Of a DNA stretch of 64,000 nucleotides, positions 57,122 to 57,673 are shown one piece after another. The notes beneath the pieces are model-generated. The model ran no database searches. It worked only from the letters and a program-made list of their open reading frames with translations, and had not been told where the DNA came from. Position numbers and translations under genes: made by a program. The DNA is from Escherichia coli. GTDB lineage: Bacteria; Pseudomonadota; Gammaproteobacteria; Enterobacterales; Enterobacteriaceae. Each line of letters begins with the position of its first letter. The stretch's first letter is position 1. The stretch lies in NCBI RefSeq assembly GCF_041886205.1, contig NZ_CP169029.1. One strand, written 5' to 3'.

Positions 57122-57673
57122 TCACCGAATTGCGACTTCCGGATCTGGCTCATGAGTAATGCGATTACGTAAGTCGCGGCGCATAATCTCTATTATCCAG
57201 AACCAGAAAATATGCCCCAGGATTTCAGACGCATATTCGTCAAAAGGCAATTGAGTGAGCGGCGGCGTTAAATTCAGCGCCGGGCAAAATATACCGTGGA
57301 CTGCCACTGTCACAATAAGCCCTGCTAATATCCCCTGCCATAATTTCACTTTCGGGAAAATTTCCGCGACAACACAATACCCTATCGCAAAAACCAGTGA
57401 GAAGATGATATGCGTCACCATCACCGGGTTGATAATATGTTCCGAGAATGTGTACACAGTTTGGGTTGGGTTGATACCTAAATAATCTCGTAGAAAGATA
57501 TACGGCGGGTTAAATTCATCGCGACCACCGGAAAATGTGCGCGGTGGCAAGGGGACTTCCGCTCCCCATTTAACAAATGCTGAAATAATTCCTGAAAGTA
57601 CACCCACAAGTAACGCAACGCCATAGCGGCGACGCTGCGGATCCGTTCTGACAAACAATCCTTTGATAGCCAT
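57122..57673 (-). CDS. Putative inner-membrane protein with four predicted TM helices, possibly YagU/DUF1440 family
   Basis: 183-aa ORF with four hydrophobic segments immediately downstream of ulaF. Family assignment is from memory and uncertain. Confidence 0.6.

What the first reader, a model, noticed from the sequence alone, without database searches (positions are those of the whole stretch)
57122..57673. Membrane-protein ORF between yjfY and ulaF that is absent from the K-12 gene order as I remember it
A 183-aa ORF with four clear hydrophobic helices lies directly downstream of ulaF on the same strand, ending at a strong hairpin-T6 terminator. In K-12 I recall yjfY following ulaF with no gene between, so this looks like strain-specific accessory content. 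It resembles the YagU/DUF1440 family, but that is from memory.
Basis: partly seen in the sequence, partly recalled or inferred. Interest (0 to 1): 0.45.

Follow-up and report, generated by a model that had tools for sequence, protein, structure and literature searches.

The report
Second YagU-type membrane gene after ulaF
This is a real, conserved gene for a small four-helix inner-membrane protein of the uncharacterised YagU/DUF1440 family that sits after the vitamin-C (ula) operon in about 11% of E. coli genomes and is missing from K-12 because of a ~600-bp deletion; it is already annotated in public genomes and its function is unknown.

Summary
The ORF is real: window 57122-57673, minus strand, 183 aa. 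It matches Pfam DUF1440 over the whole profile (E=5e-45) and is 56% identical to K-12 YagU.

MG1655 and BW25113 have nothing between ulaF and yjfY. 603 of 5,426 complete E. coli genomes, including 55989 and O104:H4, carry this gene there. RefSeq already names it "YagU family protein". Carriers also keep the canonical yagU, so this is a second paralog. It belongs to a short-loop subfamily found across Enterobacterales.

It is not a recent insertion:
- Its synonymous divergence from E. whittamii (0.31) equals that of ulaE, ulaF and yjfY.
- dN/dS is about 0.03.
- No repeats or mobility genes bound it.
- All non-carriers show the same gap: 598 bp replaced by 9 bp in K-12.

So K-12 has most likely lost an old gene.

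The order ulaE-ulaF-gene recurs in Pseudocitrobacter, Hafnia (27-nt spacer) and Budvicia. That hints at co-expression with ascorbate catabolism, but this is untested.

The hairpin next to the stop codon has its T6 on the yjfY strand, not on the gene's strand.

Function is inferred only from YagU, which is acid-induced and needed for full pH 2 survival. No solved structure resembles the model. Verdict: ordinary, already annotated, low interest.

The parts
57122..57673 (-). CDS of a 183-aa YagU-family (DUF1440) inner-membrane protein, the short-loop paralog ('yagU2' in this report)
   Evidence: ORF. Pfam PF07274 E=5e-45, full-length. 56% identity to K-12 YagU. RefSeq annotates the same gene as 'YagU family protein' WP_000985137.1 in strain 4/2-1. 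dN/dS 0.03 against E. whittamii. Four-helix model.
57674..57709 (-). 36-nt leader that belongs to the carrier-specific segment. It holds the ribosome-binding site AGGTG (57678-57682), 4 nt before the ATG.
   Evidence: Sequence. No sigma-70-like promoter was found in the ulaF-gene spacer.
57112..57709 (.). 598-bp segment present in carriers and replaced by 9 bp (TTGAAAAAC) in K-12. It comprises the gene, 10 nt after its stop codon and 36 nt before its start codon.
   Evidence: Junction alignment. blastn of the window against K-12. All non-carriers sampled have the same gap size, 591-593 bp. No direct or inverted repeats bound the segment.
57711..57760 (-). Long hairpin just after the ulaF stop codon, kept in carriers and in K-12 with base changes on both arms that preserve pairing. 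It is followed by a U-run in K-12 (U5) and Pseudocitrobacter (U8) but not in E. coli carriers.
   Evidence: Inverted repeat I5, arms 57711-57720 and 57751-57760, 100% complementary. Folds. No Rfam family matches it.
57088..57111 (+). GC-rich hairpin plus T6: the intrinsic terminator of yjfY. The converging YagU-family gene reaches it from the A-tract side.
   Evidence: Terminator scan. Folds of both strands. Identical in K-12.
57768..58454 (-). ulaF (L-ribulose-5-phosphate 4-epimerase), the upstream neighbour on the same strand
   Evidence: 228 aa, 97.4% identical to K-12 UlaF. RefSeq annotation.
56772..57047 (+). yjfY (DUF1471, YdgH/BhsA family), the converging downstream neighbour
   Evidence: 100% identical to K-12 YjfY. 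Pfam PF07338.

Best explanation
The ORF encodes a functional small inner-membrane protein with four transmembrane helices and predicted N-in/C-in topology. It belongs to the YagU/DUF1440 family and is a second, short-loop paralog, distinct from the canonical yagU next to paoABC, which carriers also possess. It is an old resident of the ulaF-yjfY interval. It was already there when E. coli and E. whittamii diverged, and it has been removed from K-12 and about 89% of sequenced E. coli by one 598-bp deletion that left the ulaF hairpin and the yjfY terminator intact. Among the remaining E. coli it travels as a short haplotype within a recombination mosaic. How it works is inferred, not shown. It has its own ribosome-binding site but no recognisable promoter. 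It is therefore probably transcribed by read-through from the ulaABCDEF operon, through a hairpin that lacks a U-tract in carriers. By analogy with YagU, it probably contributes to envelope or acid-stress tolerance through the buried, invariant Glu, His, Cys and Lys residues of its helical bundle, acting on protons, ions or a small solute. Confidence by part: identity and evolutionary history about 0.85; read-through expression about 0.4; acid or ion-handling role about 0.25.
For: Family: PF07274 at 153 bits, full length. 56% identity to K-12 YagU with shared motifs [16 protein letters not shown](V/I)KLWQG and [15 protein letters not shown]. Distinct paralog: carriers have two places, this gene plus yagU at about 65% nucleotide identity. 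K-12 YagU groups with the long-loop Pasteurellaceae proteins, while this protein groups with short-loop Enterobacterales proteins in a tree that follows taxonomy. Functional gene: dN/dS is 0.03 (window) and 0.014 (55989) against E. whittamii. 50 columns are invariant in 45 homologues, including E39, H88, C100, E104, K108, K110, H126, E150, E162 and R165. Old at this site: dS against E. whittamii is 0.31-0.33 for the gene, compared with 0.33-0.34 for ulaE, 0.26-0.32 for ulaF and 0.22-0.35 for yjfY. The same order ulaE-ulaF-gene-yjfY-rpsF is found in E. whittamii and Pseudocitrobacter faecalis, and ulaE-ulaF-gene in Hafnia (2 species) and Budvicia (2 species). Deletion: clean junction of 598 bp against 9 bp. 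Non-carriers all show the same gap size. No bounding repeats and no mobility gene inside the segment. Topology: K/R counts per segment are 5 (N-terminus), 2 (loop 2) and 4 (C-terminus), with acidic periplasmic loops, and there are four long helices in the model. Expression: the spacer is 27 nt with a ribosome-binding site in Hafnia; the hairpin has no U-run in E. coli carriers; no promoter-like site lies in the spacer. YagU role: strongly acid-induced in response to external pH, and the mutant shows 19% against 70% survival at pH 2 (PMC1626474; PMC2270276).
Against: No experiment bears on this paralog; the functional statement is transferred from a protein that is 56% identical and itself has no known mechanism. 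The paralog lacks YagU's 21-residue Cys-containing periplasmic insert, so the two need not act alike. Representative genomes of the other Escherichia species and of Salmonella gave no hit in the species-level scan, so ancestral presence requires several independent losses. Within E. coli the gene is much less diverse (dS 0.023, window against 55989) than the adjacent ulaF (0.159). That fits a relatively recent spread of one haplotype by recombination. Its GC3 (47%) is far from that of ulaE and ulaF (about 70%), though close to yjfY (49%). Pseudocitrobacter has a hairpin plus T8 between ulaF and the gene, which argues against obligatory co-transcription with ula.
Confidence: 0.6

Rival explanations
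1. The gene is horizontally acquired accessory DNA that was inserted between ulaF and yjfY in some E. coli lineages. The empty K-12 site would then be the original state.
For: Patchy distribution: 603 of 5,426 genomes. Low diversity of the gene among carriers compared with its flanks (dS 0.023 against 0.159 in ulaF). GC3 of 47% against about 70% in ulaE and ulaF. No hit in the representative genomes of other Escherichia species or Salmonella.
Against: Synonymous divergence from E. whittamii equals that of the flanking genes. The gene order is identical in Pseudocitrobacter, and ulaEF linkage is seen in Hafnia and Budvicia, with identities that fall in step for UlaE, UlaF and this protein. There are no flanking repeats, integrase or transposase. 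The protein tree follows taxonomy. Alleles within E. coli differ by up to about 4%.
Confidence: 0.15
2. The protein is a working seventh member of the L-ascorbate (ula) system. It might be a membrane component that handles a by-product, a proton load or a substrate of anaerobic ascorbate fermentation, rather than a general acid-stress protein.
For: It lies on the same strand directly after ulaF in three Enterobacterales families: Enterobacteriaceae, Hafniaceae and Budviciaceae. The spacer in Hafnia is 27 nt with only a ribosome-binding site. No promoter-like site lies in the E. coli spacer.
Against: In 46 of the 52 non-E. coli loci that carry a confirmed copy, the gene sits in unrelated contexts. 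Examples are a transporter plus a PLP-lyase-like gene in Citrobacter, and sugar PTS, LysR, MFS and other genes elsewhere (these neighbour identities were read by eye, not scored). K-12 grows on ascorbate through ulaABCDEF and ulaG without it (established knowledge of the ula regulon). A terminator-like hairpin separates it from ulaF in Pseudocitrobacter and K-12-type alleles. No paper links ulaF and yagU functionally.
Confidence: 0.15
3. The ORF is a decaying or non-functional remnant, or a spurious ORF, that merely persists in some strains.
For: It has been lost from most E. coli without obvious consequence. No family with a known function matches it.
Against: dN/dS is 0.01-0.03. All 603 carriers hold at least 80% of the segment. 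The Pfam match is full-length. 50 columns are invariant across 45 homologues from several families.
Confidence: 0.03

Closest known systems
E. coli K-12 YagU (b0287), inner-membrane protein, Pfam DUF1440 / PF07274
   Same: Same Pfam family over the full profile. 56% identity with collinear motifs, including the C-terminal [15 protein letters not shown]. Same predicted four-helix membrane architecture.
   Different: Different locus: after ulaF rather than beside paoABC and ykgJ. 183 aa against 204 aa; it lacks the 21-residue periplasmic insert with two Cys. It belongs to a separate subfamily in the tree. It coexists with yagU in carriers. Whether it is acid-induced or contributes to acid resistance is untested.
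RefSeq 'YagU family protein' / 'DUF1440 domain-containing protein' at the ulaF-yjfY site (WP_000985137.1 in strain 4/2-1, WP_000996728.1 in E. coli 55989)
   Same: This is the same gene at the same position, 99.5% amino-acid identity to the 4/2-1 protein.
   Different: Nothing of substance: one or two residues differ.
ulaABCDEF L-ascorbate utilisation operon of E. coli
   Same: Same strand, immediately distal to ulaF. The ulaE-ulaF-gene block is conserved in Pseudocitrobacter, Hafnia and Budvicia.
   Different: It is not part of the operon as defined in K-12, where it is absent. A hairpin separates it from ulaF. Its composition differs, with GC3 of 47% against about 70%. No pathway step requires it.

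Membership tests
DUF1440 / YagU family (Pfam PF07274) | Score above the Pfam gathering threshold with full-length coverage of the profile | tested here: met
   153.2 bits against a cut-off of 34.7; profile positions 1-135 of 135; E=5.3e-45.
DUF1440 / YagU family (Pfam PF07274) | Small polytopic inner-membrane protein with four transmembrane helices | tested here: met
   This is prediction only. Hydropathy and the positive-inside charge pattern. AlphaFold2 helices at 17-39, 83-105, 112-132 and 144-173, pTM 0.75. No experimental topology exists for this paralog.
DUF1440 / YagU family (Pfam PF07274) | Family-wide invariant motifs shared with K-12 YagU | tested here: met
   FVKWGAE..PPR, FPKxKLWQG, SE..G..W.W.IE and RRDLRNRIT are conserved.
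Orthologue of K-12 yagU (b0287) | Same locus (paoA-yagU-ykgJ), about 204 aa with the long Cys-containing periplasmic loop, and the only copy in the genome | tested here: not met
   Different locus. A 21-residue gap. Carriers hold both genes. Separate clade. It is a paralog, not the orthologue.
Orthologue of K-12 yagU (b0287) | Induction by external acid and a contribution to survival at pH 2 | not testable with these tools
   Known only for K-12 yagU (PMC1626474; PMC2270276).
ula (L-ascorbate utilisation) operon member | Same strand and adjacent to ulaF, with the linkage conserved in other taxa | tested here: met
   94-nt spacer in the window. The same adjacency occurs in E. whittamii, Pseudocitrobacter, two Hafnia species and two Budvicia species, which is 6 of the 52 non-E. 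coli loci with a confirmed copy.
ula (L-ascorbate utilisation) operon member | Co-transcription with ulaABCDEF under UlaR, CRP and IHF control | not testable with these tools
   Indirect evidence only. No promoter-like site lies in the spacer. The hairpin has no U-run in carriers, but Pseudocitrobacter has a hairpin plus T8.
Mobile or horizontally acquired island | Bounding repeats, integrase or transposase, or a tRNA or att site at the junctions | tested here: not met
   No repeats bound 57112-57709. The segment holds only the one gene. The junction is clean.
Mobile or horizontally acquired island | Divergence from an outgroup that is out of step with the flanking core genes | tested here: not met
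   dS of 0.31-0.33 for the gene, against 0.22-0.35 for ulaE, ulaF and yjfY, relative to E. whittamii.
Mobile or horizontally acquired island | Atypical base composition | tested here: inconclusive
   GC is 46.9% and GC3 46.7%, against GC3 of about 70% in ulaE and ulaF but 48.9% in yjfY. The window average GC is 50.8%.

The most novel reading that the evidence does not exclude
The short-loop DUF1440 subfamily may be an ancient seventh gene of the Enterobacterales ula operon (ulaABCDEF plus this gene). It could have a real role during ascorbate fermentation, for example handling the acid or proton load or a reactive by-product at the membrane. It would have escaped study only because K-12 deleted it. 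That would give the first physiological handle on the YagU/DUF1440 family.
Probability: 0.15. Interest if true: 0.45.

Novelty: already known. Interest (0 to 1): 0.17.

Why it matters
The practical value is small. It corrects a K-12-centred picture: the ulaF-yjfY interval of K-12 is a deletion allele, and about one in nine sequenced E. coli, including the EAEC strain 55989 and the O104:H4 outbreak lineage, carry a second YagU-type membrane protein. The recurring position after ulaF in three Enterobacterales families is a cheap, testable lead into a membrane-protein family with no known mechanism. The only phenotype for that family so far is a three-fold loss of pH 2 survival in a K-12 yagU mutant.

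Tried and rejected
- NCBIfam gave no model. A permissive Pfam scan gave only noise besides DUF1440.
- Rfam found no family for the ulaF-proximal hairpin. It found only the RpsF leader and a sub-threshold STnc280 match on the yjfY terminator.
- The promoter scan found no site in the ulaF-gene spacer.
- A search for mobile-element signatures at the indel junctions found none.
- I looked for a locally elevated divergence peak around the gene, which would indicate a recent import. The whole ula region is a mosaic at 2-8% divergence, so no clean signal emerged.
- Neighbourhoods in the 46 non-ula loci gave no common functional theme.
- Literature: no paper links ulaF and yagU. DUF1440 is mentioned only in passing, including as a predictor of Lactococcus milk acidification rate. 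This is correlative and from a distant organism, and I did not rely on it.
- I did not phylotype the carriers. Assigning them to phylogroups B1 or C rests only on my knowledge of strains 55989 and O104:H4.

Full report
**1. Observation**

On the same strand, 94 nt upstream, is ulaF (57768-58454; 228 aa, 97.4% identical to K-12 UlaF). Beyond that lie ulaE and ulaD. Downstream, on the opposite strand and converging on it, is yjfY (56772-57047; 100% identical to K-12 YjfY). Then come rpsF, priB, rpsR and rplI.

The ORF is not a chance reading frame. It matches Pfam DUF1440 (PF07274) at 153 bits against a gathering score of 34.7, across all 135 profile positions.

One descriptive detail is mis-oriented. 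The GC-rich hairpin at 57088-57105 has its T6 on the + strand, so it is the yjfY terminator. In the ORF's direction the hairpin is preceded by A6 and followed by AAAGCAAAC. At best it is the weak face of a bidirectional terminator.

Of the "four clear helices", three pass a Kyte-Doolittle threshold of 1.4 and the fourth is amphipathic. An AlphaFold2 model built on 45 homologues (pLDDT 76, pTM 0.75) shows four long helices at 17-39, 83-105, 112-132 and 144-173. The K/R distribution predicts N-in/C-in topology.

**2. Is it absent from K-12?**

Yes. In MG1655, ulaF ends at 4424386 and yjfY begins at 4424516, with nothing annotated between them. BW25113 is the same.

A junction alignment shows the window and K-12 are identical up to window position 57111, the end of the T6. 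Homology resumes at 57710. The 598 bp between are replaced in K-12 by 9 bp, TTGAAAAAC. The segment holds the gene, 10 nt after its stop codon and 36 nt before its start codon, including the ribosome-binding site AGGTG.

**3. Distribution in E. coli**

Of 5,426 complete E. coli genomes, 603 (11%) carry the segment, always between ulaF and yjfY. Over the 598-bp segment, 342 genomes are at least 99% identical to the window. The other 261 are 95-99% identical, and these include E. coli 55989 and O104:H4 strains.

RefSeq annotates the gene as "YagU family protein" or "DUF1440 domain-containing protein". The gene is therefore already catalogued.

All sampled non-carriers show the same gap size, 591-593 bp, which indicates a single event.

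Carriers also hold the canonical yagU. They have two matching places per genome, the second at about 65% nucleotide identity.

**4. Relationship to YagU**

The protein is 56% identical to K-12 YagU (204 aa, beside paoABC and ykgJ). It lacks a 21-residue periplasmic insert that carries two Cys in YagU.

In a neighbour-joining tree of 45 homologues, K-12 YagU groups with long-loop Pasteurellaceae proteins. The window protein belongs to a short-loop group spread over Enterobacterales whose branching follows taxonomy. It is a paralog, not a recent duplicate.

Fifty alignment columns are invariant. They include charged or polar residues inside the predicted helices: E39, H88, S92, Y99, C100, E104, H126, E150, E162 and R165.

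**5. Insertion or deletion?**

A scan of one genome per bacterial species found close relatives in 53 loci.

The order ulaE-ulaF-gene-yjfY-rpsF-priB is found in E. whittamii (98% amino-acid identity) and Pseudocitrobacter faecalis (88%). The order ulaE-ulaF-gene is found in Hafnia alvei and H. paralvei (79% and 77%) and in Budvicia aquatica and B. diplopodorum (77% and 76%). These belong to three families: Enterobacteriaceae, Hafniaceae and Budviciaceae. Identities of UlaE, UlaF and this protein fall in the same order across these taxa.

Synonymous divergence between E. coli and E. whittamii is as follows:

| Gene | dS |
|---|---|
| this gene | 0.31-0.33 |
| ulaE | 0.33-0.34 |
| ulaF | 0.26-0.32 |
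| yjfY | 0.22-0.35 |

For this gene, dN/dS is 0.014-0.031.

The segment has no bounding repeats and no mobility gene. Together this says the gene was at this site before E. coli and E. whittamii diverged and is under purifying selection. The empty site is therefore a deletion allele.

Three points count against this reading:
- Representative genomes of the other Escherichia species and of Salmonella gave no hit, so several losses are needed.
- Among carriers the gene is much less diverse (dS 0.023) than the adjacent ulaF (0.159). The whole ula region is a recombination mosaic, so the presence allele seems to move as a short haplotype.
- GC3 is 47%, against about 70% in ulaE and ulaF and 49% in yjfY.

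**6. Expression (inferred)**

The ulaF-gene spacer holds a long hairpin (arms 57711-57720 and 57751-57760) that is also present in K-12. The two alleles differ on both arms in ways that preserve pairing.

What follows the hairpin differs between lineages:
- K-12: CGUUUUUC.
- Pseudocitrobacter: U8.
- E. coli carriers and E. whittamii: no U-run.
- Hafnia: the whole spacer is 27 nt, a ribosome-binding site only.

No sigma-70-like site was found in the spacer. Read-through from the ula operon is the simplest reading for E. coli, but it is not shown. The Pseudocitrobacter terminator argues that co-transcription is not universal.

**7. Function (inferred)**

Nothing is known for this paralog. For K-12 yagU, published work shows strong induction by external (not cytoplasmic) acidification. 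A yagU::kan mutant survives pH 2 at 19%, against 70% for the parent (PMC1626474; PMC2270276).

Outside the ula-linked lineages the gene's neighbours are heterogeneous. I therefore commit, with low confidence, to a YagU-like envelope or acid-stress role exerted through the conserved buried acidic and His residues. As a lower-probability alternative, I keep a specific role in ascorbate fermentation.

**8. Comparison and novelty**

It is a member of the DUF1440/YagU family; all sequence-level defining features were tested and met. It is not the orthologue of K-12 yagU, because locus, loop and copy number were tested and not met. It shows no feature of a mobile island.

The gene is already annotated in hundreds of public genomes, so it is "already known". 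The only mildly new points are:
- K-12 carries the derived deletion allele.
- The gene's position after ulaF recurs across three Enterobacterales families. No paper in the searchable library mentions this.

**9. Verdict**

The feature is ordinary: a variable, annotated gene of unknown function. Interest is low (0.17). The most novel reading not excluded is a genuine seventh ula gene with a role in ascorbate fermentation, at a probability of about 0.15.

Noticed in passing
window 52984-54293: A 1310-bp IS3-family insertion sequence has interrupted yjfZ (DUF2686). It has 25-nt terminal inverted repeats (TGAACCGCCCCGGGAATCCTGGAGA), orfA at 53038-53364 (HTH_Tnp_1) and orfB at 53361-54251 (rve). 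The ORF at 54348-54935 covers only DUF2686 profile positions 91-285. The element is absent from K-12. From memory it looks like IS629/IS1203.
   Followed up: partly
window 50510-52259: About 1750 bp absent from K-12 carry an IS200/IS605-type pair: TnpB (50556-51764, minus strand; OrfB_IS605 plus a Cas12f1-like TNB domain) and a Y1 transposase (51772 onwards, plus strand). They sit at the site of K-12's truncated TetR-family pseudogene.
   Followed up: partly
window 56443-56527 (-): The RpsF leader (Rfam RF02893) is present at 110 bits against a gathering score of 37, full length, upstream of rpsF. This is expected and ordinary.
   Followed up: yes
window 56551-56700: This patch of the rpsF-yjfY intergenic region is hypervariable: 19-20 mismatches per 150 bp against both K-12 and 55989, while the ribosomal genes next to it are identical. 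No explanation was sought.
   Followed up: no
window 57768-61000 (ula operon): The ula genes are unusually polymorphic and mosaic within E. coli. ulaF dS is 0.13-0.20 between E. coli strains, more than half the E. coli-E. whittamii value. Blocks of 0-21 mismatches per 150 bp change partner between K-12 and 55989.
   Followed up: partly
window 57711-57760 and K-12 L057:20509-20560: The hairpin after ulaF is conserved between presence and absence alleles, with changes on both arms that keep pairing (GCUGCGGAA/UUCCGCAGC against CCCCGGAA/UUCCGGGG). It is followed by a U-run only in the alleles or species where it ends the transcription unit or precedes a long spacer.
   Followed up: partly
L031 (CACSKA010000001.1, titled Chryseobacterium sp. 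18061): A record labelled Chryseobacterium carries a protein 77% identical to this Enterobacterales protein and groups within Enterobacterales in the tree. The assembly is probably mislabelled or contaminated.
   Followed up: no
E. coli genome search: One copy of the 598-bp segment and 14 weaker yagU-like matches lie on plasmids. I did not inspect them.
   Followed up: no
window 57044-57117 (+): A sub-threshold Rfam match to the Salmonella sRNA STnc280 (28 bits against a gathering score of 80, E=0.029) overlaps the yjfY 3' end and terminator. It may be a 3'-UTR-derived sRNA homologue or noise.
   Followed up: no
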